Source: Fidelibacterota bacterium | Lineage (GTDB): Bacteria; Fidelibacterota; Marinisomatia; Marinisomatales; TCS55 | NCBI GenBank assembly: GCA_046861385.1 | Contig: JBHHTW010000015.1 | Coordinates: 1 to 47,551, forward strand | Reading direction: 5' to 3' | DNA: 47,551 nucleotides | Part shown: piece after piece, positions 14,273 to 23,899 of the stretch | How the letters are laid out: each line of letters opens with the position of its first letter | Numbering within the stretch: position 1 is the stretch's first letter | Notes under the pieces: generated by a model | What the model saw: only the letters and a program-made list of their open reading frames with translations | Database searches by the model: none | Told to the model about the DNA's origin: nothing | Made by a program: the position numbers and the translations under genes

Positions 14273-14381
14273 TCATATAGCTGATCATAGGAGTAAAACC
14301 TCAATAATATTTAAACAGACCGGAATATTCTGTGAAATAAAATTAATGGCTATATTTAATAAACTTACTGAATTAGACAAA

Positions 14382-14829
14382 ATAAAAACATTCAACACCT
14401 ATGGCGTTGGTGTTCTATTATGATTGGATGTTATAGACATTTGACTCCGAACGGAGTCTTAAAATATAAAAAGAAATCCCGCCCGCCTGCCAAAGTGAAA
14501 CGTCGGACAGGTAGGGATTGTATGTCTATAAAGGCGTTGAATACAGCGAACAAGAACTCCATCGGAGTTCAACGGTAGTACAAACAATATGCAAATCAGT
14601 TTATCATTAGAACATAGCCAATTTAATTTATCTGGCCTATCACAATAAAACGCGCCAAATAAAGTGAAATAGTTTGTCTGAATGCCTGTTTGCCGGAGGC
14701 GAAGTGTAGGCAGGCTGTGAAGAACCTCAAGCATAAAATGTCCAACTGACATTTGAGATTATTATCTGCCATAGTGCAACGTGGGCATGACTTTAGTCTT
14801 CCGATAAATCGAAATCCTTCAGAATGACA
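14382..14829. repeat. Cluster of degenerate, partly nested REP-like palindromes
   Basis: Hairpins gactccg-aa-cggagtc (14443-14458), aatccc...gggatt (14475-14519) and gaactcc-atc-ggagttc (14554-14570). Shared tatagacat / atgtctata tails. cctg...cagg-type inserts at 14482-14511 and 14685-14714. cagaatgaca end at 14820-14829. Confidence 0.65.
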
Positions 14830-14892
14830 ATATTATTTGTATATTTAACGTACAGCCCGAACTTGATTTATTTAGAATATTTTTCCTAAAGC

Positions 14893-14908
14893 TGTCATTT
14901 ATCCGACA
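14893..14908 (+). promoter_or_regulatory. Putative Crp/Fnr-family operator TGTCA-N6-CGACA
   Basis: tgtca tttatc cgaca. TAATAT at 14930-14935 lies at the same spacing as for the 3851 site. Confidence 0.65.
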
Positions 14909-14963
14909 ATACACTTTTGATACCTTTTGTAATATTTCACACGAAATTAGAAAAGGATTAATT

Positions 14964-15365
14964 ATGATTAATAAATATTTTGTGATTATTGGATTAGCAG
15001 CCACTTTATTAATGGCTGGAAGTAATGACCTTTTTGTAAAACACAGCTTGGATGAAGCACTGTCAATTGGGATAGCAGAAGGAAAGGGAGTATTGGTAAA
15101 ATTCCACGCTGACTGGTGCCATTTCTGCAATAAAATGGATAGAGTCACTTTTGCAGATCCAGGTGTACAGAAAGCCATGGAAGGTTATATTTCAATCAAA
15201 GTTGATATAGAAACGAAGGAAGGGCTGGCATTAGCCCGGAAATTTGGTGTCACAGGTTTACCCACCATTGTCATGTTTGATAAGAATGGAAAAAAAATAT
15301 ATCATCAACCCGGTTTTCATTCTGCAAAACAGATGGAAAAGGTATTGAATACAAGGCATGGCTGA
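14964..15365 (+). CDS. Exported thioredoxin-family protein (WCHFC)
   Basis: Signal peptide, FHADWCHFCNKMD and GVTGLPT cis-Pro loop. Confidence 0.88.
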   Translation: MINKYFVIIGLAATLLMAGSNDLFVKHSLDEALSIGIAEGKGVLVKFHADWCHFCNKMDRVTFADPGVQKAMEGYISIKVDIETKEGLALARKFGVTGLPTIVMFDKNGKKIYHQPGFHSAKQMEKVLNTRHG

Positions 15366-16083
15366 TTTACCGGCAATCACTGTTGACCAGATGCGGGAGG
15401 TTGATCGACTCATGGTGGAAGATTTCTATATTAGTCTCCCTCAAATGATGGAACATGCAGGGCGAAATCTAGCTGAATTTGTATTGGAGTGGCTTAAAAA
15501 ACGCAATGAGAAAAAACACTTTAAAATAATAATTGCTTGTGGTACTGGGAACAACGGCGGTGGCGGAATGGTTGCCGCCCGGTTTTTGGCAAACAGGGGT
15601 CATGAAGTGGCTGTTATTTTGGCTGGGAATGCCAAAAAGCTTAAACCTGTTCCAGCGAACCACTGGAAAACACTCCAAGCCATGAACATTCGAACGATCG
15701 AAGCAAACAGCAGAGATTCTATTCAAACATATAATGAATCAGACTTGATCATTGATGCGATGGTTGGATATAGTCTTCAGGGAGAACTGAAAGGTATACC
15801 TGCTCAAATCGCCAAGGAAATTATTCAATCAGGAAAAGAAGTCGTTTCATTGGATGTTCCTTCCGGTCTAGATGCAACAACGGGAAAATCCAGTCCCGAT
15901 TGTATTAAAGCAGTAGCAACAATGACATTGGCATTACCAAAAACCGGATTTAAGGCAGATAATGCAAAAGATTTTACCGGTGATATTTACGTTGCGGATA
16001 TTGGAGTTCCGCCTGTTTTGTACACTCATTTGGATCTATCGGTAATCGACCCTTTTCATGGTCGTTCAGTGATTAAATACTAG
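15358..16083 (+). CDS. nnrE: Stand-alone NAD(P)H-hydrate epimerase (YjeF N-terminal domain)
   Basis: MMEHAG, CGTGNNGGGG, IIDAMVG, SLDVPSG and ADIGVP motifs. Confidence 0.85.
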   Translation: MADLPAITVDQMREVDRLMVEDFYISLPQMMEHAGRNLAEFVLEWLKKRNEKKHFKIIIACGTGNNGGGGMVAARFLANRGHEVAVILAGNAKKLKPVPANHWKTLQAMNIRTIEANSRDSIQTYNESDLIIDAMVGYSLQGELKGIPAQIAKEIIQSGKEVVSLDVPSGLDATTGKSSPDCIKAVATMTLALPKTGFKADNAKDFTGDIYVADIGVPPVLYTHLDLSVIDPFHGRSVIKY

Positions 16084-16098
16084 AACAGTCTTTTTCTC

Positions 16099-17187
16099 CT
16101 ATTGAAACAGCTCAGTATTGGGATAAAAAGCAATTACCGAGAACCAATAAGCAATAAACCCATTAACTGCCCTTAGGTCATTCCCACTTGTGTTGATAGA
16201 GTTTCCTAAAATATTATAAGATTCGCCAGACTTGGACGATTTAAGGGATATTGTTCCATGGTCGATATCCCAATTTTCGATTGAAAGATCGTCATCCGTA
16301 AAAAAAGCAATTGCAATATTATCTTCACCGGAGATAATAGCATTAAAATGCTGTCCGTCTAAATCACCCCGGATAATTACAGGTTGTTTAAAATGGTTGA
16401 TACTAAATGCTTTTGTATTTCCATTTTCACCCACCAAAGCCAATACACGCTCCTTGGCCGGGAGTCTGTCATCTTCATAAGCAATGGGGAAAAATAGATA
16501 ATCTTTGCATTTTCGAGTGTTGCATGATCGATATTTACCATACGGATAGAAATCATAATTACGGGAATGATTTGTCTGGCTATTGATCACTTTTGTGTCA
16601 GGAAAAAGAGATTTCCAGGTTTTCCATGTTGTCTCTAATAAAGGTTGTAAAGCAAATGTACTGTCTTTTAAATCACCGGCGGCAGATGCAAGGTGGAGTT
16701 GGGGCCAATAACTGTCTGTTTCACGATCATACATAATCAGGTTGCTATTGTATAGCAGACCTGAAACCCCAAATTCATTATCTCCTCTGATATTTAAGGC
16801 ACTGCCCGTCAAAGGGCAGTAGGAAATGGAATAACCACTTTCATTAATAATTTCGTGCCAATCTAGAACCGAATGAGGGTAAGCAGTCCATCCATCGCCA
16901 TCCCTAACACCTACAACTAATTCGTCATCGTCTAAGAATTCAATATATTTACCATCTGATGTTGATCGATTCGGATTTTTCAAACTGGGGATACAATCTT
17001 TACCGGGGCATCCTTTTCGAATAAAGCTTGTATTAATGGACCACTCTAATCCAATAAATGATTTTTTTGATTGGGAGTTTGCTGCACAACCAGATAGAAA
17101 CATGAAAGTTGTTAAGGCAACTAAAGATATTATCCTTAAAATCAAATAACTTTGATTTGCTTTACCAGATATAGGATTTGACATCAT
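16099..17187 (-). CDS. DUF3179 domain lipoprotein (paralog 2)
   Basis: LSGC lipobox, KDCIPSL, AYPHSVLDWHEIIN, SYCPLTGS, FGVSGLLYNSNLIMYDRETDSYWPQ and AYWF. Confidence 0.82.
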   Translation of the reverse strand: MMSNPISGKANQSYLILRIISLVALTTFMFLSGCAANSQSKKSFIGLEWSINTSFIRKGCPGKDCIPSLKNPNRSTSDGKYIEFLDDDELVVGVRDGDGWTAYPHSVLDWHEIINESGYSISYCPLTGSALNIRGDNEFGVSGLLYNSNLIMYDRETDSYWPQLHLASAAGDLKDSTFALQPLLETTWKTWKSLFPDTKVINSQTNHSRNYDFYPYGKYRSCNTRKCKDYLFFPIAYEDDRLPAKERVLALVGENGNTKAFSINHFKQPVIIRGDLDGQHFNAIISGEDNIAIAFFTDDDLSIENWDIDHGTISLKSSKSGESYNILGNSINTSGNDLRAVNGFIAYWFSVIAFYPNTELFQ

Positions 17188-17206
17188 GTATAAGTAGATA
17201 ATGGAA

Positions 17207-18145
17207 TTACCTATTGAATATTCCGCCTGTAATAACGGAGACCGCTATCCTGGGGACAGGCTCTGTACCATCGGGAAAAATTCCATTTGAAGACCAGCTT
17301 GAAATAGGAAGAGAAAAGCGCACGTGAAACCAATCCCACGATGAATGGATGGGCGTTACGTCCACACCTATATTGATTTCACTTAACCAGCGAGACTCCC
17401 GCTGTGACTCAAATGGAGATAATGGAGCCAAAAGTTTTTGCGTTTGCAGAGTCGTAAATGGAGATAATGATACTATCTCTGAAAGAAATAGAGTGGAAGA
17501 TAGATGCATATATATCGCATCATCCAGATAAACATTATCCTGAATCTTCAGGTTTTTCCCAAATGAAAAAGATAAAGATACATCCGGAAAAATGAAGGGA
17601 TAATCTATGGACCAGGGGGTTTGGAAATGGTTTATCCAACCAAGGGTTGAGACGGGGACAGCCCCGGTTCTGAATGGAAAATCTTTATTGTTAAATTGGG
17701 GTGTTTGCGGAAAATTCAACTCTCCGAAAATAAACCCCCACTTTTTAGAAAGGAGGTGACGAATCCCTGATTTTAAAAATAGTTGCTGTACCTTGCTGCT
17801 ACTTTTTGAGAATGATAATGATTCCTGTAATTGGAGCCAACTGCCTTCAATTTGAATATATCCGACGCTGTTTTGTCCAATATAATGAGACACTTGGGTA
17901 TGAATGCCCAGGGAATTTCCATAACGAATATTTAAATCATTATCAGACGTATATGAGGAGGTCAATCCTGCCAACCAATTAACGGAATGGTGGTTATCAA
18001 ATCGGGATGGCCATTGAACTTTCCATTGAGTAGCCGTTGTACCACCCCCCTGATCAACTGCACCGACCAGGGAACAGCAGACCTGCCCAGTTAAAAAATT
18101 AATCCATATTGGGATTAATATTAAAAAGTACCGGAATTTTATCAT
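17207..18145 (-). CDS. Exported protein with N-terminal Cys-Cys (QVCCS), possible outer-membrane beta-barrel
   Basis: ATG at 18145 overlaps the upstream TGA (ATGA). Signal peptide, then QVCCS and alternating aromatic/hydrophobic strand-like segments. Confidence 0.6.
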   Translation of the reverse strand: MIKFRYFLILIPIWINFLTGQVCCSLVGAVDQGGGTTATQWKVQWPSRFDNHHSVNWLAGLTSSYTSDNDLNIRYGNSLGIHTQVSHYIGQNSVGYIQIEGSWLQLQESLSFSKSSSKVQQLFLKSGIRHLLSKKWGFIFGELNFPQTPQFNNKDFPFRTGAVPVSTLGWINHFQTPWSIDYPFIFPDVSLSFSFGKNLKIQDNVYLDDAIYMHLSSTLFLSEIVSLSPFTTLQTQKLLAPLSPFESQRESRWLSEINIGVDVTPIHSSWDWFHVRFSLPISSWSSNGIFPDGTEPVPRIAVSVITGGIFNR

Positions 18146-19167
18146 GAATGAATTTCTGTGTCCGGATAAAATGCTGCTTGAGAAAACCAATAGGAGATAA
18201 ATGACTTGGCTGCAACAAGATCATCACTTGCTGCATTTATTGATCGTCCCAAAATATTATATTGATTTCCATTTGAGTCCATAAGAAAAATGGTACCGTT
18301 TTCCGGATCCCATTGTGAGATTGACAAGGTCGACGATGCTTCAAATGCCACTGCCAAATTATCATTTGCCGAAAGGATGATGGCGTAGGTTGCTCCATCG
18401 ATAGTTTCGTTTAAAATGGTTGGTTGATCAAATTGATCAATAGGATATGCTATTTGTATGTTGTCTGTAATGATGGATAGTACTCTTGTTTTGGCTGGCA
18501 GCCGAGTATCAACCGGAGGAACCGGAAAATATATATAATCTCCGCAACTTGAAGAATTGCATGATCGATATCCGCCGTAAGGATAAACATTATAATCCCG
18601 TGAATGTCCCGTTTGAGAATTGACTACTATCGAATTCGGAAATAATTTTTTCCAGGTAGACCATTTTGTTTCTATCATTGTTTTCAGAGCGAGTTCCTCC
18701 CCCTGACGCGAACCTTCAGCCGATGTTAACAACATCTGAGGCCAGTGGCTTTCGGTATCCCTGTCGTACATGATCAAATTGGTATTAAAGAGCATTCCGG
18801 AAACCCCAAATTCACCGGTGGTTTCGATATGAAGAGCGCTCCCGGTTAATGGACAGTAGGAAATGGTGTAACCACTTTCATTCACAATTTCGTGCCAATC
18901 TAATATAGCGTGAGGATAGGCAATATATTGACTACCATTCCAGAGGCCCACGACCAGGTCGTTATCATTCAGGAATTCCAGATGGTCTCCTTCCACATGG
19001 GATTTGTTTGGCTCTTGAAGACTGGGAATACAATCCTTTCCGCTTAAGCATCCATACCTGAGGTAATCCGTATCGATTGTCCAGTCTCGTTGTTTTATTT
19101 CAATTGGTTTTTCATCTTCACAGCTCAATAGAAATAGTATGGGTAATATTAAACCAAAATACTTCAT
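18142..19167 (-). CDS. DUF3179 domain lipoprotein (paralog 1)
   Basis: LLSC lipobox, KDCIPSL, AYPHAILDWHEIVN, SYCPLTGS and FGVSGMLFNTNLIMYDRDTESHWPQ. Confidence 0.82.
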   Translation of the reverse strand: MKYFGLILPILFLLSCEDEKPIEIKQRDWTIDTDYLRYGCLSGKDCIPSLQEPNKSHVEGDHLEFLNDNDLVVGLWNGSQYIAYPHAILDWHEIVNESGYTISYCPLTGSALHIETTGEFGVSGMLFNTNLIMYDRDTESHWPQMLLTSAEGSRQGEELALKTMIETKWSTWKKLFPNSIVVNSQTGHSRDYNVYPYGGYRSCNSSSCGDYIYFPVPPVDTRLPAKTRVLSIITDNIQIAYPIDQFDQPTILNETIDGATYAIILSANDNLAVAFEASSTLSISQWDPENGTIFLMDSNGNQYNILGRSINAASDDLVAAKSFISYWFSQAAFYPDTEIHS

Positions 19168-19177
19168 TTATTTCTCC

Positions 19178-19987
19178 TCATTTTAATAAAACAATTTTAT
19201 GAGTTTTCCGATAGAATGGCGTTGAAACGTCTAAGAAATATATACCTGAGGACAAGTCATTTCCTGAGTAGGTAAAATGATGAGATCCTGCAGGTAATGT
19301 TTTATTAAAAATAGATGATACAATTTTTCCGGATAAATCAATAATGTTGGCTTCCACAAATGTCTCTCTCTTGAGATTCAAGTTCCAAACCATTTGAATA
19401 TTAAATGGGTTAGGAAATGGTGGGAGTATCTCAAAAGATCTTAGTGGTGATTCTCCCTCAATAGCAACCGTTGGAATTTCATTCAATAAGGATTGAATCG
19501 TGAATGCAATTTCGGCTGCATCAAAACCAAAATCGTTGTATCGCACGGTCATGGTGTGATCCAGAATCACTTGTTGCGGAACATACCCGAGACCAAACCA
19601 ATTCCATATGGATGTTGTATCGTCATCCAAAATAGGTGTTGATAATCCTAAATCACCCCATTCCTGACAACTATAAGGATAATCCCACTGACGCCCGAGT
19701 GAAAGGAGAGTAAGACCCTGCTCATTAAATTGATTATTTAAATCAGATACCAATGGAATTTCATTTTGACAATTTGTGCACCAAGTGGTAAAAAAATTCA
19801 ACCAGATTATGTGATATTCCCCACCATTGATTTCACCATTATACTGAGACAATAATGTGTAGCCGGAATCGTTTGCACACGCTTTGATTTCAACGTATTG
19901 ATGATCCAGAGAAATCTTAGATCCAAGTTCATAAGATTGACTGAACATTATAGAAACAAACAGGGTAAGAAGGGTAAGAACTTTCAT
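19178..19987 (-). CDS. Exported TlpA/redoxin-like protein (WCTNC) with C-terminal sorting (T9SS type A-like) domain
   Basis: Signal peptide, NFFTTWCTNCQNE, YVPQQVILD, and C-terminal PFPNPFN...LSSGIYF...KIVLLK. Confidence 0.82.
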   Translation of the reverse strand: MKVLTLLTLFVSIMFSQSYELGSKISLDHQYVEIKACANDSGYTLLSQYNGEINGGEYHIIWLNFFTTWCTNCQNEIPLVSDLNNQFNEQGLTLLSLGRQWDYPYSCQEWGDLGLSTPILDDDTTSIWNWFGLGYVPQQVILDHTMTVRYNDFGFDAAEIAFTIQSLLNEIPTVAIEGESPLRSFEILPPFPNPFNIQMVWNLNLKRETFVEANIIDLSGKIVSSIFNKTLPAGSHHFTYSGNDLSSGIYFLDVSTPFYRKTHKIVLLK

Positions 19988-22020
19988 TTTATTAGTGTCA
20001 CTTTTTGGGTTATGATTGAATTGCCTTTTTGCAATCGAACTAAATACTGTCCGGAAGATAACGGTACACCATTATCATTCATTCCAGACCATGATACGTT
20101 ATGGTTTCCCGCTGAAAAATACCGGTTTGAGAAAATAGTCGCCACCACATTGCCCTTAAGACTGACGATGTCCAAGGAGATCATGGCTGATGGGTAGATA
20201 CTAAACTGCAATGTGGTGACTGGATTAAAAGGGTTTGGATAATTGGGTAAAAGTTTTATTGTTTCCGGAAGCAATAATTCCAAGTCTGTAGAGACATTAA
20301 CGTCTCTATCCAGCAGATTCTCGATTACATTAATCATTTCTCCCGGATCGTATTCAGTTTTCGCAAGCTGAACGATTCCATTTTTATCCACAATGAAATC
20401 CCTTGGGTATGGGGATTGTCCCCCGGGAATATTATATTGACTATATATCCCCGAAACATCCCGCAGCACCGGAAATGTAATTCCCTGGTCTGCTATAAAA
20501 TTCTCAATGACAGCTAACGGTTCGTTTGAAATACCGATCACTTGGACTCCTTCATCTCGATATTCTTGCCAAATGGAAACTTCTATGTCCGAAAACTCCG
20601 GAGCGCATACAGGTCACCATCCTGTGAAAAAGGCAATCACAGCCGGATTTCCGTTTAGATCATTCAGACTCAAGTTGTCTGTTCCATTTACAACAGGTAA
20701 TGTAAAATTCGGAGCATGATCTCCCGGCATGGGACCCATTGGAAAATTCCCAAGTAAACGTACACGTGTTTGATTTTCATCATGATCATTGGATAGAAAT
20801 TCAAGGTTTGCAATCCAGACATTTCCAGAGGGCGAATAATTTACGACCATGGATTGAGACGTTTTGGGCTGAAGTGTCAATTCGATAGGATTGTGAGAAA
20901 AATCAGCTGAGTTAATGTAAATCCCACTGATATTTAGTGGACTAAGTCCATTATTTTCTATTTGAATATGTGATATGGACGTAAATCCATTTTCCGTCCT
21001 GGGATATTCAATCTTGCGAGTACTTAAATCAATATCAGCTTGTTGAATCTCACCGTATTCAAACACAGACATTCGGAGCCATTCTGCAGAGTAAATAATT
21101 TTTCCCATCATGGCTAAAGCCATAACTCTACCTCCAGTACTTTTATAACCAGTCAGCTCCAGCTCTCCCTTTGAATACTCCAGCACTTCTACATCATCCC
21201 AATCAGAGACAGCAACTAAAGAATCATTGACCGAAATGCGTGAGGCATAACCTGTAGTATTGTAATTTGAAACAAAGAACGGATCCACCGGTTCACTCAC
21301 ATCAATCATATCCACACCGGCTGCGCCCACAGCAACAAAAAGGAAATCTCCTCTCTTTTCAACATCTTTAGCGGTACCGGTTGTTACAATTTCAGAAACC
21401 TGAAATGGGGATGAGGGATCGGTGATATCAAAAATTTTAATTCCAAAACCCCCATCAGCGATATAAAGAAAATGATTGTCTGCCGTTGTCGCCCAGGCAT
21501 TATCTGTTTCAATCGTGGAAATCGTTTGTGGAGATTCAGGATTTTCAATATTAAATATTTCTACCCCATTTTGATGACGCGAGGCCAATAATAAATTTTC
21601 ATAAACACTAGTATGTTCATATCGAATAATACTGCCGTCGTTGGAAGTGCCTACAATAGTACTTAGGTGAGTTGGATGAGAAACATCATTGATATTCACA
21701 ACGTGTATCCCGCATTTTCGACCGGATCCATACGCAACATAATCTTTTGCAGACCATGCGTAGATTCTCGCCCAATCGCATCCAAATGCAAAGTATTCAC
21801 CCAATACATTTAGAGCGGAAGGATTTGATATATCTACAAAATTAGTTCCTCCCAACCCCCCGGGTATGATTGCAATAGGTATTTCCTGAACAGTATGTAT
21901 ATACACATCTAACAATTCAATATTACTAATAGACTCCCTTGAACGAATCTGTAGGTTTTTACCGATTAAAATCCCACTGATCAGGAAAATCATTAAGAAT
22001 AATTTCATTCGTAATTGCAT
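19984..22020 (-). CDS. Probable selenoprotein: signal peptide, LVIVD repeats, Ig-like segment, redoxin (W-U-P-V-C) and FlgD/T9SS-like C-terminal domain; in-frame TGA at 20614-20616
   Basis: Reading through TGA gives AVIAFFTGW-U-PVCAPEFSDIEVSIWQEYRDEGVQVIGISNE, in frame with the 19984..20541 ORF. A SECIS-like hairpin follows. Start is 22020 or 22008. Confidence 0.8.
20584..20609 (-). promoter_or_regulatory. Bacterial SECIS-like hairpin immediately 3' of the in-frame UGA
   Basis: mRNA UGA CCUG UAUG CGC UCCGGA GUU UUCGGA CAUA. Lower stem UAUG/CAUA, upper stem UCCGGA/UUCGGA, apical loop beginning GU about 17-18 nt after the UGA. Confidence 0.7.
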
Positions 22021-22073
22021 AATAAATCCGTTATTTGACGGTAAAATGTTAAACGGAATCACTCGTATCAAAA

Positions 22074-22089
22074 CGTCATGGCGAAGACA
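22074..22089 (-). promoter_or_regulatory. Possible Crp/Fnr-family operator TGTCT-N6-TGACG upstream of the selenoprotein operon
   Basis: 8/10 match to TGTCA-N6-TGACA. TAACAT -10-like hexamer on the minus strand at 22051-22046. Confidence 0.45.
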
Positions 22090-22233
22090 AATAATGTAAA
22101 AAAAGAAAGTAACTAAACATCACAGGACTTGACCTAAAAATCAGACCTAGGAGAAGACTTAACTTTAGGGCTGGGAAATGAGCAACATCGTCACGCTCCA
22201 TCGTATTTTTTTGTCCCTGGACGTGAACGTTAG

Positions 22234-22260
22234 CCTGTCGGAATGCTTCGGTAGGCAAGG
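22234..22260. repeat. Degenerate CCTG...CAGG-family palindromic element
   Basis: Minus strand ccttgcctaccgaagcattccgacagg resembles the elements at 14482 and 14685. Confidence 0.45.
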
Positions 22261-22279
22261 ACTCTCCACTCCAATAAAG

Positions 22280-22353
22280 TAGCGGCGCAGGGACTTGAAC
22301 CCCGGACACTCGGATTATGATTCCGATGCTCTAACCAACTGAGCTACGCCGCC
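22280..22353 (-). tRNA. tRNA with CAT anticodon, probably elongator tRNA-Met
   Basis: GGCGGCGTAGCTCAGTTGGTTAGAGCATCGGAATCATAATCCGAGTGTCCGGGGTTCAAGTCCCTGCGCCGCTA folds as a cloverleaf. CCA is not encoded. Ile2 identity is not fully excluded. Confidence 0.93.
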
Positions 22354-22510
22354 AATTATACTACCAACAGCCTAATCCACCTTCCTGCGGTGGACATAGA
22401 TCCGTTTATAATATCAAATAACTTTGGAAATAAAGCCAGCAAAATTAGAATTCTCCTTGTGGAAAACAAAGGTAAAAGACGTGAAAATATTTATGGATAG
22501 ATGGTGTTAG

Positions 22511-23899
<1,389 letters not shown>

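What the first reader, a model, noticed from the sequence alone, without database searches (positions are those of the whole stretch)
19984..22020. Hidden multidomain exported selenoprotein: in-frame UGA in a W-U-P-V-C redoxin motif
Seen in sequence: the 485-aa ORF ends abruptly at ...APNFTLPVVNGTDNLSLNDLNGNPAVIAFFTGW, exactly where a TlpA/redoxin fold has its first active-site Cys. The codons after TGA (20614-20616) read CCT GTA TGC (P-V-C) and run without a stop into the 19984..20541 ORF, which holds the rest of the redoxin fold (VIGIS, ITFPVLRD, YPRDFIVDKNG). The next gene has the homologous FFTTWCTNC. Established knowledge: UxxC thioredoxin-fold proteins are a recognised selenoprotein class. 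Inference: one protein of about 675 aa with signal peptide, LVIVD beta-propeller-like repeats, Ig-like segment, Sec-redoxin and NYPNPFNP/FlgD-type C-terminal sorting domain. A surface-exported or secreted selenoprotein with this architecture is unusual, and standard annotation would miss it.
Basis: partly seen in the sequence, partly recalled or inferred. Interest (0 to 1): 0.9.

Follow-up and report, generated by a model that had tools for sequence, protein, structure and literature searches.

The report
Hidden exported selenocysteine redoxin protein
The stop codon in the middle of this gene most likely codes for selenocysteine, so two database fragments are one large exported redox enzyme that is conserved across a major group of ocean bacteria.

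Summary
On the minus strand, one 674-aa reading frame (19987-22008) carries an in-frame TGA (20614-20616). That TGA sits at the first active-site position of a ResA/TlpA-like redoxin domain (W-U-P-V-C).

- **Conservation.** In a sample of 401 genomes of the phylum, 100 carry the gene. All 103 matches that span the site have a TGA there, and none has Cys. All 70 fetched loci read U-P-x-C.
- **SECIS.** Starting 12 nt after the UGA lies a hairpin (UCCGGA-GUU-UUCGGA) that is invariant at the nucleotide level. Of 105 conserved, degenerate codon columns, only TGA and three hairpin codons (CCG, GAG, TCG) never vary. The hairpin meets all four constraints of the published bacterial SECIS model.
- **Machinery.** The genome has selA, selB, tRNA-Sec and a Sec-containing SelD. 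TGA also serves as an ordinary stop.
- **Architecture.** Signal peptide, LVIVD beta-propeller, Ig-like domain, Sec-redoxin, then a type IX secretion C-terminal domain. Other clades carry a dockerin-like tail instead.
- **Databases.** 112 of 120 listed homologues are cut off exactly at the Sec codon.

The kind (a UxxC thioredoxin-fold selenoprotein) is known. The multidomain secreted architecture, with no Cys orthologue found, appears undescribed. Substrate and final location are inferred, not shown.

The parts
19987..22008 (-). Full coding sequence of the selenoprotein, 674 aa. The alternative start ATG 22020 gives 678 aa. The true stop is TGA 19984-19986.
   Evidence: Read-through frame. Public gene call P0002 starts at MKLFL. 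35-orthologue alignment A2. AlphaFold model with pLDDT 89 and pTM 0.79.
21958..22008 (-). N-terminal signal peptide (residues 1-17, MKLFLMIFLISGILIGK), followed by the nearly invariant N18-L19.
   Evidence: Hydrophobic N-terminus seen in the sequence. The model has a helix at residues 2-12 with lower pLDDT. N18 and L19 are nearly invariant. No signal-peptide predictor was available, so this is inferred.
21049..21957 (-). LVIVD-repeat beta-propeller (residues 18-320), related to choice-of-anchor B.
   Evidence: Pfam LVIVD 58.9 bits, cut-off 20.2. TIGR04312 scores 28.6, below its cut-off of 100. The model is all-beta blades. Foldseek finds only generic propellers, among them PorZ 5m11.
20749..21033 (-). 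Ig-like beta-sandwich (residues 326-420), like DUF1573 / choice-of-anchor D.
   Evidence: NF012200 scores 27.7, below its cut-off of 45. PF07610 is precomputed on many homologues. Strands in the model.
20311..20721 (-). ResA/TlpA-like thioredoxin-fold redoxin domain (residues 430-566) with the U465-P-V-C468 motif, invariant E471 and invariant P535.
   Evidence: Pfam AhpC-TSA 84.8 bits and Redoxin 62.4 bits, both over their cut-offs. Best solved relative is ResA 3c71, E 3.6e-14, with WCxxC, the Glu and the S-P-x-P loop aligned. Invariant columns.
20614..20616 (-). In-frame UGA read as selenocysteine (U465 from ATG 22008; residue 486 from TTG 22071).
   Evidence: TGA in 35 of 35 aligned orthologues, 70 of 70 fetched loci and 103 of 103 site-spanning matches. 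No other letter at these bases in any laid contig.
20588..20602 (-). SECIS hairpin core: UCCGGA-GUU-UUCGGA, a 6-bp stem with a GUU loop that starts 17 nt after the UGA.
   Evidence: Consensus fold of 10 orthologues. Invariant in 69 unique sequences. CCG470, GAG471 and TCG473 have zero codon entropy. Meets the bSECIS model quoted. The core motif is unique in the genome.
19987..20223 (-). C-terminal beta-sandwich (residues 596-674): type IX secretion type A sorting domain (NYPNPFNP ... KVTLIK).
   Evidence: TIGR04183 24.8 bits, cut-off 23. Pfam Por_Secre_tail scores 23.2, below its cut-off of 27, and FlgD_ig scores 28.8, cut-off 27. Model pLDDT is 81-93 for most of the domain and 71 for the last few residues. 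PorU is present in the genome.
19178..19987 (-). Downstream gene: a 269-aa Cys redoxin (W-C-T-N-C) with its own T9SS sorting domain. Its ATG overlaps the selenoprotein's TGA stop (ATGA).
   Evidence: Found next to the Sec gene in closer relatives, but only in some distant clades.
16099..19167 (-). Rest of the same-strand cluster: a DUF3179 lipoprotein-like gene (18142-19167), an unknown 327-aa ORF (17207-18190) that looks like an outer-membrane beta-barrel, and a second DUF3179 gene (16099-17187).
   Evidence: Pfam DUF3179 at E 5e-65 and 7e-62. The Atlas leads for the 327-aa ORF are leads only. DUF3179 is listed as a selenoprotein family (UxxC/T) in other organisms.

Best explanation
Window 19987-22008 (minus strand) is one gene for a 674-aa exported selenoprotein.

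**Decoding.** The UGA at 20614-20616 is decoded as selenocysteine by SelB and tRNA-Sec. These are recruited by a small hairpin (UCCGGA-GUU-UUCGGA) that starts 12 nt after the UGA.

**Chemistry.** Sec occupies the N-terminal, attacking position of the redox motif (U-P-V-C) of a ResA/TlpA-like thioredoxin-fold domain. The selenolate would attack a disulfide, or a peroxide or sulfenic acid, on a substrate. C468 would resolve the adduct to an intramolecular selenenylsulfide, which an external reductant then re-reduces.

**Location.** The catalytic domain hangs behind a signal peptide, an LVIVD beta-propeller and an Ig-like domain, which are probably substrate- or surface-binding modules. It is followed by a type IX secretion sorting domain, so the enzyme is most likely delivered across the outer membrane.

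**Shown:** the single reading frame, the conserved UGA, the RNA-level constraint, the Sec machinery and the domain architecture.

**Inferred:** actual Sec insertion, the direction of the redox reaction, the substrate, the reductant and the final location.
For: 1. **One frame.** The redoxin domain spans the TGA, and the single confident AlphaFold model has a continuous Trx fold at residues 430-566.
2. **The TGA is conserved, never replaced.** 100 of 401 sampled genomes of the phylum carry the gene. All 103 of 107 matches that cover the site have a TGA, at protein identity down to 35%. 70 of 70 fetched loci read U-P-x-C.
3. **Protein-level selection continues after the TGA.** P466, C468, P470, E471, S473 and D474 are invariant, while P466, V467 and C468 use all their synonymous codons.
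4. **RNA-level constraint.** Of 105 conserved, degenerate codon columns, only TGA465, CCG470, GAG471 and TCG473 have zero codon entropy. The motif CCGGAGTTNTCGG is invariant in 69 unique sequences and occurs once in the 2.43-Mb genome.
5. **The hairpin fits the published bSECIS model.** The model asks for a loop of 3-9 nt, a stem of 4-16 bp, a G in the first two loop positions, spacing of 16-37 nt and MFE of -7.5 kcal/mol or lower (Fig. 2 legend of PMC13188914). Here the values are 3 nt (GUU), 6 bp, 17 nt and -8.8 kcal/mol.
6. **Machinery.** selA and selB are adjacent. tRNA-Sec scores 62.6 bits with anticodon TCA. SelD is itself a Sec form, GSGUACK. Two further AhpC/TSA ORFs carry TGA at TPGU and WUKYC.
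7. **TGA is also an ordinary stop.** It ends 303 of 1045 ORFs of 300 codons or more.
8. **selB and the gene go together.** The gene was not found in the three families without selB (f12 0/37, f26 0/33, f25 0/2).
9. **ResA-like hallmarks align.** WCxxC, the Glu three residues after the second Cys, and the S-P-x-P loop all align.
10. **Export.** The T9SS type A domain is over the NCBIfam cut-off, PorU scores 584.7 bits, and 40 further weaker matches to the C-terminal end of the PorU profile are scattered across the genome.
Against: - No direct evidence of Sec insertion or even of transcription. No RNA run holds the stretch.
- The hairpin folds no better than shuffled sequence (z = -0.10).
- Because the stem never varies, there is no covariation: 0 of 6 pairs show compensatory change. 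The structure rests on invariance, not on compensation.
- 12 of the 100 genomes that hold the gene had no selB match at E <= 1e-60 (my by-eye comparison). Of 5 of these re-tested, 3 have the SelB-specific domain and 2 (86% and 88% complete) do not.
- Pfam's own T9SS model falls below its cut-off (23.2 against 27), and some clades carry dockerin-like or other tails. Location may therefore differ or be misjudged.
- No reductant for a surface enzyme is identified. The one DsbD-type transporter in the genome lies elsewhere.
- The neighbouring redox genes are conserved only in part of the family: 3 of 10 distant loci.
Confidence: 0.85

Rival explanations
1. The TGA is a nonsense mutation, a pseudogene or a sequencing or assembly error. 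Only the 464-aa propeller fragment is made, or nothing is.
For: Public gene callers stop there: 112 of 120 listed homologues end at the site. One relative (G034) has a decayed copy, with TAG before the TGA, Cys to Tyr, and a second TAG.
Against: The same TGA is present in 70 of 70 loci and 103 of 103 site-spanning matches from many genera and families. The protein is conserved downstream with synonymous variation. The TGA is intact in every laid contig, including one from a second study (record 18 of run X6).
Confidence: 0.01
2. These are two separate genes. Translation ends at the UGA, and the C-terminal part is started independently at GTG 20541 or nearby.
For: An ORF with a GTG start exists at 19984..20541. 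A database entry of exactly that 185-aa ORF exists (P0128).
Against: Such a product would lack the active-site motif and the first helix of the Trx fold. The 24 codons between the TGA and the GTG are the most conserved part of the protein. The GTG column holds a start-capable codon in only 3 of 35 orthologues, and the first possible in-frame start lies anywhere from 2 to 93 codons after the TGA.
Confidence: 0.02
3. The UGA is read through, but not as selenocysteine. It would be read as Trp, Cys or Gly by a near-cognate or suppressor tRNA, or under an alternative genetic code.
For: Four database homologues are written with W at the site (P0068, P0069, P0076, P0077).
Against: In the nearest fetched loci that W aligns with a TGA, so these are most simply table-4 gene calls; I could not see their own DNA. 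TGA ends 303 of 1045 long ORFs in this genome and ends this very gene. The site is the nucleophilic Cys position of a CxxC redoxin. A SECIS-type hairpin and the complete Sec machinery are present.
Confidence: 0.04
4. It is a genuine selenoprotein, but it works in the periplasm, not on the surface. There it acts as a DsbD/CcdA-fed reductase like ResA/TlpA, and the C-terminal domain is not a functional secretion signal.
For: All characterised ResA/TlpA relatives are periplasmic or extracytoplasmic-membrane reductases (established knowledge). The genome has one DsbD-type transporter. The Pfam T9SS model is below its cut-off. No electron source is evident outside the outer membrane.
Against: The NCBIfam T9SS type A domain is over its cut-off, and the domain is a confidently modelled beta-sandwich. 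PorU is present. Other clades swap this tail for dockerin-like repeats, another extracellular module. The propeller and Ig parts resemble 'choice-of-anchor' domains, though below their cut-offs. The DsbD gene is not linked to this locus.
Confidence: 0.2

Closest known systems
'Prx-like thiol:disulfide oxidoreductase' and 'Redoxin family protein' selenoprotein families. These are PF00578 / PF08534 with a UxxC motif, computationally predicted and listed in Table 1 of PMC13188914 and in the GOS table of PMC2398784 (passages read).
   Same: An AhpC/TSA-Redoxin type thioredoxin fold with Sec at the first position of UxxC. A bacterial SECIS lies just downstream. The families are marine and predicted by comparative genomics only.
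   Different: Those families are listed under a single redoxin domain in the tables read. Here the domain is the fourth module of a 674-aa exported protein (propeller, Ig, redoxin, secretion tail). No Cys orthologue of the whole protein was found. I could not test whether short GOS reads counted as 'Prx-like 1' already include fragments of this gene, because figures and supplements were not available.
ResA / TlpA / CcmG (DsbE) extracytoplasmic thiol-disulfide reductases, e.g. Bacillus subtilis ResA, PDB 3c71 / 1st9.
   Same: Best solved relatives by sequence (E 3.6e-14). W-C-x-x-C, the Glu three residues after the second Cys and the S-P-x-P loop all align. Both are extracytoplasmic.
   Different: They use Cys rather than Sec, are small membrane-anchored single domains, and are fed by CcdA/DsbD. 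This protein scores 60.9 bits against the NCBIfam ResA subfamily cut-off of 170, so it is not a ResA orthologue.
Type IX secretion cargo with a type A C-terminal domain. PorZ (PDB 5m11), with propellers plus a CTD, is a structural example.
   Same: Signal peptide, beta-propeller, and a C-terminal beta-sandwich sorting domain ending in K. A PorU sortase is present in the genome.
   Different: I know of no T9SS cargo reported to contain selenocysteine. One paper holds both 'selenocysteine' and 'type IX secretion' (listing only), and its title concerns other matters. PorZ is a secretion-system component, not a redox enzyme.
Predicted outer-membrane selenoproteins: the FCYXU-type TonB-dependent receptor, the MtrB/PioB-like barrel and the ExtKL cytochrome. 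See Table 1 of PMC13188914 and the deep-Sep paper PMC12013277.
   Same: These are selenoproteins predicted to lie at or beyond the outer membrane of Gram-negative bacteria.
   Different: They have different folds and different roles, and none carries a secretion-tail architecture or a catalytic thioredoxin fold.

Membership tests
Bacterial selenoprotein gene (SelB/SECIS-dependent UGA recoding) | The in-frame UGA aligns with a catalytic Cys of homologues. | tested here: met
   The U of W-U-P-V-C aligns with the first Cys of ResA's WCxxC. The Pfam redoxin domains span it.
Bacterial selenoprotein gene (SelB/SECIS-dependent UGA recoding) | The UGA is conserved in orthologues, with coding conservation on both sides. 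| tested here: met
   103 of 103 site-spanning matches, 70 of 70 loci, invariant residues after the UGA with synonymous variation.
Bacterial selenoprotein gene (SelB/SECIS-dependent UGA recoding) | [quoted passage not shown] | tested here: met
   GUU loop, 6-bp stem, 17 nt spacing, -8.8 kcal/mol, set against the model text. The hairpin is invariant at synonymous sites. There is no covariation and the z-score is not significant.
Bacterial selenoprotein gene (SelB/SECIS-dependent UGA recoding) | selA, selB, selC (tRNA-Sec) and selD are present in the genome. | tested here: met
   All are over their curated cut-offs: selA 443 bits, selB 359.7, selD 403.6 (with one TGA), tRNA-Sec 62.6 and ARAGORN tRNA-SeC(tca).
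Bacterial selenoprotein gene (SelB/SECIS-dependent UGA recoding) | Selenium is physically present in the protein. | not testable with these tools
   Needs 75Se labelling or mass spectrometry.
ResA/TlpA-like thioredoxin-fold oxidoreductases (Pfam AhpC-TSA / Redoxin) | Family models are matched over their curated cut-offs. | tested here: met
   AhpC-TSA 84.8 bits (cut-off 26) and Redoxin 62.4 bits (cut-off 26.6).
ResA/TlpA-like thioredoxin-fold oxidoreductases (Pfam AhpC-TSA / Redoxin) | A CxxC motif, the acidic residue three positions after the second Cys, and the cis-Pro loop. | tested here: met
   Alignment to 3c71 and 1st9. U465, C468, E471 and P535 are invariant in 35 orthologues. The role of these residues in ResA is recalled knowledge.
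ResA subfamily proper (NCBIfam NF002854) | Score over the subfamily cut-off of 170 bits. | tested here: not met
   60.9 bits. It is a relative, not a ResA orthologue.
Type IX secretion cargo (type A CTD) | A C-terminal type A sorting domain. | tested here: met
   TIGR04183 24.8 bits against a cut-off of 23. Pfam PF18962 scores 23.2, below its cut-off of 27. The domain is modelled as a beta-sandwich. This is a marginal pass.
Type IX secretion cargo (type A CTD) | The secretion machinery is present in the genome. | tested here: met
   PorU sortase at 584.7 bits, cut-off 420. Only PorU was searched.
Type IX secretion cargo (type A CTD) | An N-terminal Sec-type signal peptide. | tested here: inconclusive
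   A hydrophobic N-terminus and a predicted helix at residues 2-12. No signal-peptide predictor was available.
LVIVD / choice-of-anchor B propeller proteins | LVIVD repeats over the Pfam cut-off, and TIGR04312 over its cut-off. | tested here: inconclusive
   LVIVD scores 58.9 bits against 20.2, which is met. TIGR04312 scores 28.6 against 100, which is not met.

The most novel reading that the evidence does not exclude
This would be the first selenoenzyme family displayed on the cell surface or secreted by the type IX system. It would be obligately Sec-dependent, since no Cys orthologue was found, and it is carried by about a quarter of the sampled genomes of the Marinimicrobia/SAR406 phylum. 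Its selenolate would work outside the cell, where no NADPH-linked reductase is at hand. It would attack S-S bonds (disulfide-crosslinked organic matter, polysulfide or elemental sulfur) or peroxides on substrates held by the propeller. Sec would be indispensable there because it resists irreversible over-oxidation and can be recycled by weak environmental reductants such as sulfide. That would create a previously uncounted selenium demand in the dark ocean and in oxygen-deficient and vent waters.
Probability: 0.25. Interest if true: 0.8.

Novelty: new variant of a known kind. Interest (0 to 1): 0.65.

Why it matters
- **Annotation.** A protein carried by 100 of 401 sampled genomes of an abundant marine phylum is wrong in public databases. 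112 of 120 listed homologues are cut at the Sec codon, and they are named 'hypothetical' or 'DUF1573'. The catalytic half is lost or called as a separate small ORF.
- **Selenium biology.** The family has no Cys orthologue in any search made here, whereas the 2026 review says nearly all selenoproteins have Cys homologues. That makes it a clean natural case for asking why Sec is kept. Its predicted place outside the cytoplasm, possibly outside the cell, is unusual for a thioredoxin-fold selenoenzyme.
- **Ecology.** selB is over its cut-off in 291 of 401 sampled genomes of this phylum. A 2016 survey listed SAR406 single-cell genomes among carriers of an 'orphan SelD' (passage of PMC5029168). Selenium use in this lineage therefore looks general and under-appreciated.
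- **Methods.** The 15-nt invariant hairpin is a ready probe for finding the gene in metagenomes. Many contigs of other organisms in two studies align only on it.

Tried and rejected
- **RNA folding statistics.** The hairpin region folds no better than shuffles (z -0.10). RNAalifold finds no compensatory change because the stem is invariant. I therefore used synonymous-site invariance instead.
- **Rfam.** A scan of the window found only one tRNA at gathering score.
- **Promoter and terminator scans.** Over 15900-22600 they are at chance level: 23 found against 22.1 expected, and 5 against 4.9. No operon boundaries could be drawn from them.
- **Foldseek against PDB.** It gave only generic WD40-like propellers, with no functional lead for the propeller. 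A weak Pfam SBP56 hit (E 0.0036, below cut-off) was set aside as general propeller similarity.
- **The search for related loci in genome contigs.** It returned one true relative and two tail-only matches.
- **Exhaustive representative search.** It was swamped by giant LVIVD-repeat proteins. True orthologues appear only as pieces of about 466-485 aa ending at residue 464. It shows no full-length Cys form among the best 150, but it cannot exclude one lower down.
- **Region search of residues 440-600.** 3 hits, all fragments of Sec forms.
- **Expression.** No RNA holder is listed for the stretch.
- **Neighbourhood as a guide to function.** The redoxin2 and DUF3179 neighbours hold in closer relatives but in only 3 of 10 distant loci. 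I therefore do not claim a fixed system.
- **Second hidden selenoprotein.** The thioredoxin-like ORF at 14964-15365 is an ordinary WCHFC protein.
- **Earlier findings of this scan.** Nothing is on record for this genome.
- **Supplements and databases.** Supplements of the selenoprotein papers and the BSepDB database itself could not be consulted. They may already list members of this family.


Full report
**1. The observation**

The ORF table shows, on the minus strand, a 485-aa ORF (20614..22071, TTG start) ending ...NPAVIAFFTGW at TGA 20614-20616. A 185-aa ORF (19984..20541, GTG start) lies in the same frame. Translating 19984-22071 with TGA=U gives one uninterrupted frame with W-U-P-V-C at the junction and a second TGA as the real stop. 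Pfam places one AhpC-TSA domain (E 6e-24) and one Redoxin domain (E 5e-17) across the TGA. It also finds LVIVD repeats upstream and FlgD_ig / Por_Secre_tail matches at the C-terminus. The next gene has FFTTWCTNC.

**2. Is the UGA conserved?**

I searched 40 relatives with the read-through protein. Orthologues in eight further genomes had 39-81% identity, each with a TGA inside. Reading the loci showed the TGA at the same codon: W-U-P-V-C in seven loci including the window's own, and G-U-P-V-C in two.

I then took a sample of 401 genomes of the phylum, using residues 1-600 as the query. This gave 107 matches in 100 genomes at E <= 1e-40.
- Four matches do not reach residue 486.
- All other 103 carry a TGA.
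- No match has a sense codon at the site, at identities down to 35%.

I fetched 40 more of the distant loci. Together with the loci the search had stored, 70 of 70 read U-P-x-C, followed by [ASGI]-P-E-[FL]-S-D.

Extra TAA/TAG stops are listed for a few matches (G183, G274, G378, G159). Their alignments start at query residues 5-8, that is, upstream of the true ATG at residue 22. I take these stops to lie in the 5' leader, though I did not check them.

Two copies do look decayed. G034 has TAG directly before the TGA, Cys to Tyr, and a second TAG. A second copy in G029 has one TAG.

**3. Is the stretch after the UGA translated?**

In a 35-sequence alignment (A2), U465, P466, C468, P470, E471, S473 and D474 are invariant (numbering from ATG 22008). 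In the matching codon alignment, P466 uses all four Pro codons, V467 all four Val codons and C468 both Cys codons. That is purifying selection on the protein in this frame.

The GTG at 20541 that opens the 185-aa ORF is a start-capable codon in 3 of 35 orthologues. The first possible in-frame start after the TGA lies anywhere from 2 to 93 codons downstream. A conserved re-initiation site does not exist.

**4. A SECIS element**

The bases (U)CCGGAGUUNUCGGA, which start 12 nt after the UGA, are identical in 69 unique sequences.

In the codon alignment, 105 columns have a conserved amino acid with degenerate codons.
- Exactly four have zero codon entropy: TGA465, CCG470, GAG471 and TCG473.
- Every other column mixes codons. 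Other Pro columns hold 3-35% CCG, and other Ser columns up to 26% TCG.
- This shows a constraint on the RNA itself.

RNAalifold folds the element as a 6-bp stem with a GUU loop. With N = A or G the loop is AGUUN.

The 2026 review gives the bacterial SECIS model as a loop of 3-9 nt, a stem of 4-16 bp, a G in the first two loop positions (mostly N-G-[G/U]-N-N), 16-37 nt between the UGA and the loop, and MFE <= -7.5 kcal/mol (Fig. 2 legend of PMC13188914). Here the spacing is 17 nt, the loop is (A)GUU(U), the stem is 6 bp, and the 45-nt segment folds at -8.8 kcal/mol. All four constraints are met.

Against this:
- The fold is no better than shuffles (z -0.10).
- An invariant stem offers no covariation.

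The core motif occurs once in the whole genome. By my reading of the printed sequences, the other three TGA-containing candidates of the genome also show hairpins with a G early in the loop, 17-33 nt after the UGA. RNAfold's own minimum-energy fold differs for one of them.

**5. Machinery and code**

The genome (2.43 Mb, 97.9% complete) has the full set:
- selA and selB, side by side.
- A tRNA-Sec with anticodon TCA.
- A selD that itself has an in-frame TGA at G-S-G-U-A-C-K.
- Two further AhpC/TSA-family ORFs with TGA at T-P-G-U and W-U-K-Y-C.

TGA ends 303 of 1045 ORFs of at least 300 codons. It also ends this very gene, overlapping the next gene's ATG. There is no genome-wide reassignment.

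Across the phylum sample, selB is over its cut-off in 291 of 401 genomes. The three families without it (0/37, 0/33, 0/2) also lack the gene.

By my by-eye comparison of the two tables, 88 of the 100 holders have selB at E <= 1e-60. The 12 others are 61-95% complete. Of five of these re-tested with the SelB-specific domain PF09107, three have it and two (86% and 88% complete) do not.

**6. What the protein is**

AlphaFold with the 35-sequence alignment gives a confident model (pLDDT 89, pTM 0.79):

| Residues | Part |
|---|---|
| 2-12 | helix (signal peptide) |
| 18-320 | beta-propeller |
| 326-420 | beta-sandwich (Ig-like) |
| 430-566 | thioredoxin fold, with the helix starting at C468 |
| 567-595 | low-confidence linker |
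| 596-674 | beta-sandwich (sorting domain) |

The redoxin domain's best solved relatives are ResA structures (3c71, E 3.6e-14). WCxxC, the Glu three residues after the second Cys, and the S-P-x-P loop all align. Sec takes the N-terminal position, which is the attacking one in this family (recalled knowledge).

NCBIfam has no dedicated model for the protein:
- ResA subfamily: 60.9 bits against a cut-off of 170.
- Choice-of-anchor B and D: below cut-off.
- T9SS type A sorting domain: 24.8 bits against a cut-off of 23.

The genome has PorU (584.7 bits), plus 40 further weaker matches to the C-terminal end of the PorU profile.

In other clades the tail is a dockerin-like repeat pair, a different domain, or a long extension before a T9SS tail. 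A swappable extracellular anchor behind a constant core speaks for a location outside the cytoplasm and probably outside the outer membrane. This is inference.

**7. Surroundings**

The gene heads a same-strand cluster:
- A Cys redoxin with its own T9SS tail, whose start overlaps the selenoprotein's stop.
- A DUF3179 gene with a lipoprotein-like start.
- A 327-aa ORF whose Atlas look-alikes are outer-membrane barrels (leads only).
- A second DUF3179 gene.

DUF3179 is itself listed as a selenoprotein family (UxxC/T) in other organisms (tables in PMC9312934 and PMC13188914). The copies here are Cys forms (C-P-L-T).

The redoxin and DUF3179 neighbours recur in closer relatives, but in only 3 of 10 distant loci. 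The constant unit is the selenoprotein gene itself.

One DsbD-type membrane electron transporter exists elsewhere in the genome, next to another redoxin. No reductant for a surface enzyme is evident.

**8. State of the databases and the literature**

Of the 120 best homologues among 5.8 billion proteins:
- 112 end exactly at the Sec codon.
- 4 are written with W at the site. That W aligns with a TGA in the nearest genomes, so these are most simply table-4 gene calls; their own DNA was not seen.
- 4 are other pieces.

Names given by the sources are 'hypothetical protein' or 'DUF1573 domain-containing protein', from Candidatus Marinimicrobia, Fidelibacterota, Neomarinimicrobiota, 'FCB group' and one KSB1 bin. 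A listing title equates Fidelibacterota with Marine Group A / SAR406 / Marinimicrobia (PMC11652737).

No full-length Cys form appeared in the phylum genomes, in the best 150 of an exhaustive search or in a search with the redoxin region.

Paper searches:

| Terms | Papers |
|---|---|
| selenoprotein + LVIVD | 0 |
| selenoprotein + Marinimicrobia | 3, none about this protein by listing or the passages read |
| selenocysteine + type IX secretion | 1, by title unrelated |

The 2026 review lists 119 families. Among them are 'Prx-like thiol:disulfide oxidoreductase' (PF00578, UxxC), 'Redoxin family protein' (PF08534, UxxC) and several outer-membrane selenoproteins. In the passages I read it mentions neither this architecture nor this phylum.

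The GOS survey counted 225 'Prx-like 1' (pfam00578, UxxC) reads. Some may be fragments of this gene, which I could not check. The domain-fusion section of that paper does not describe this fusion (section 9 read in full).

**9. Independent sequence support**

Contigs of four public runs were laid on 20400-20800. No run shows another letter at 20614-20616. A 732-nt contig from a second study spans the whole stretch with 9 differences. The differences next to the site (20605, 20608, 20620) are synonymous third positions. Many contigs of other organisms align only on about 20559-20652, the active site plus hairpin. Runs X1 and X2 may be the source of this DNA and are not independent.

**10. Verdict**

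This is a genuine, widely conserved and systematically mis-annotated selenoprotein. The chemistry (a UxxC thioredoxin fold) is a known kind. The multidomain, secretion-tagged architecture and the apparent lack of any Cys orthologue make it a new variant. Substrate, reductant and final location remain open.

Noticed in passing
G000:C86:129-512 (-) and G000:C37:10226-10540 (+), outside the window: Two more AhpC/TSA-family ORFs of this genome carry an in-frame TGA at the active site: ...KASTPGUIVEG (the TxxU peroxiredoxin type) and ...RGNWUKYCNRQ (the UxxC type). By eye, each is followed by a hairpin with a G early in the loop.
   Followed up: partly
L010:1531 (G000:C97, selD): SelD of this genome is itself a selenoprotein (G-S-G-U-A-C-K). 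A CCCAG-GUU-CUGGG hairpin lies about 33 nt after the UGA.
   Followed up: partly
phylum sample: selB is over its cut-off in 291 of 401 sampled genomes of the phylum, but in 0 of 37 genomes of one family of about 1-Mb genomes (f12) and 0 of 33 of another (f26). A 2016 survey had listed SAR406 single-cell genomes as carriers of an 'orphan SelD' (PMC5029168, passage read).
   Followed up: partly
L029:1501-3200 (G034:C18): The orthologue in one relative looks like a decaying pseudogene. It has TAG in place of the Trp codon directly before the still-present TGA, Cys to Tyr in the motif, and a second TAG upstream. The hairpin bases are still intact.
   Followed up: partly
L069-L084, L102 (dockerin-like tails); L086, L100 (another tail); L090, L091 (forms of about 1000 aa): Different clades attach different C-terminal modules to the same propeller-Ig-Sec-redoxin core: a T9SS sorting domain, dockerin-like repeat pairs, an unidentified domain, or a long extension that ends in a T9SS tail.
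   Followed up: partly
window 16099-19167 (-): Two DUF3179 genes (Cys forms, C-P-L-T motif) flank a 327-aa ORF that resembles outer-membrane beta-barrel channels. DUF3179 is a listed selenoprotein family in other organisms, and its function is unknown.
   Followed up: partly
window 14273-14963: A stretch of about 690 bases has no ORF of note on either strand and no Rfam match at gathering score. It lies between an adenosine-deaminase gene and a small periplasmic thioredoxin-like gene (WCHFC).
   Followed up: no
window 20559-20652: In marine and vent metagenome contigs, many records from other organisms align to the window only over these roughly 90 bases (active site plus hairpin). This is an island of nucleotide conservation that could serve as a probe.
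   Followed up: partly
G000:C58:13077-14894 (L117): The genome's only DsbD/CcdA-type membrane electron transporter lies in a 652-aa open frame next to another AhpC/TSA redoxin. This looks like a separate periplasmic reducing pathway, not linked to the selenoprotein locus.
   Followed up: no
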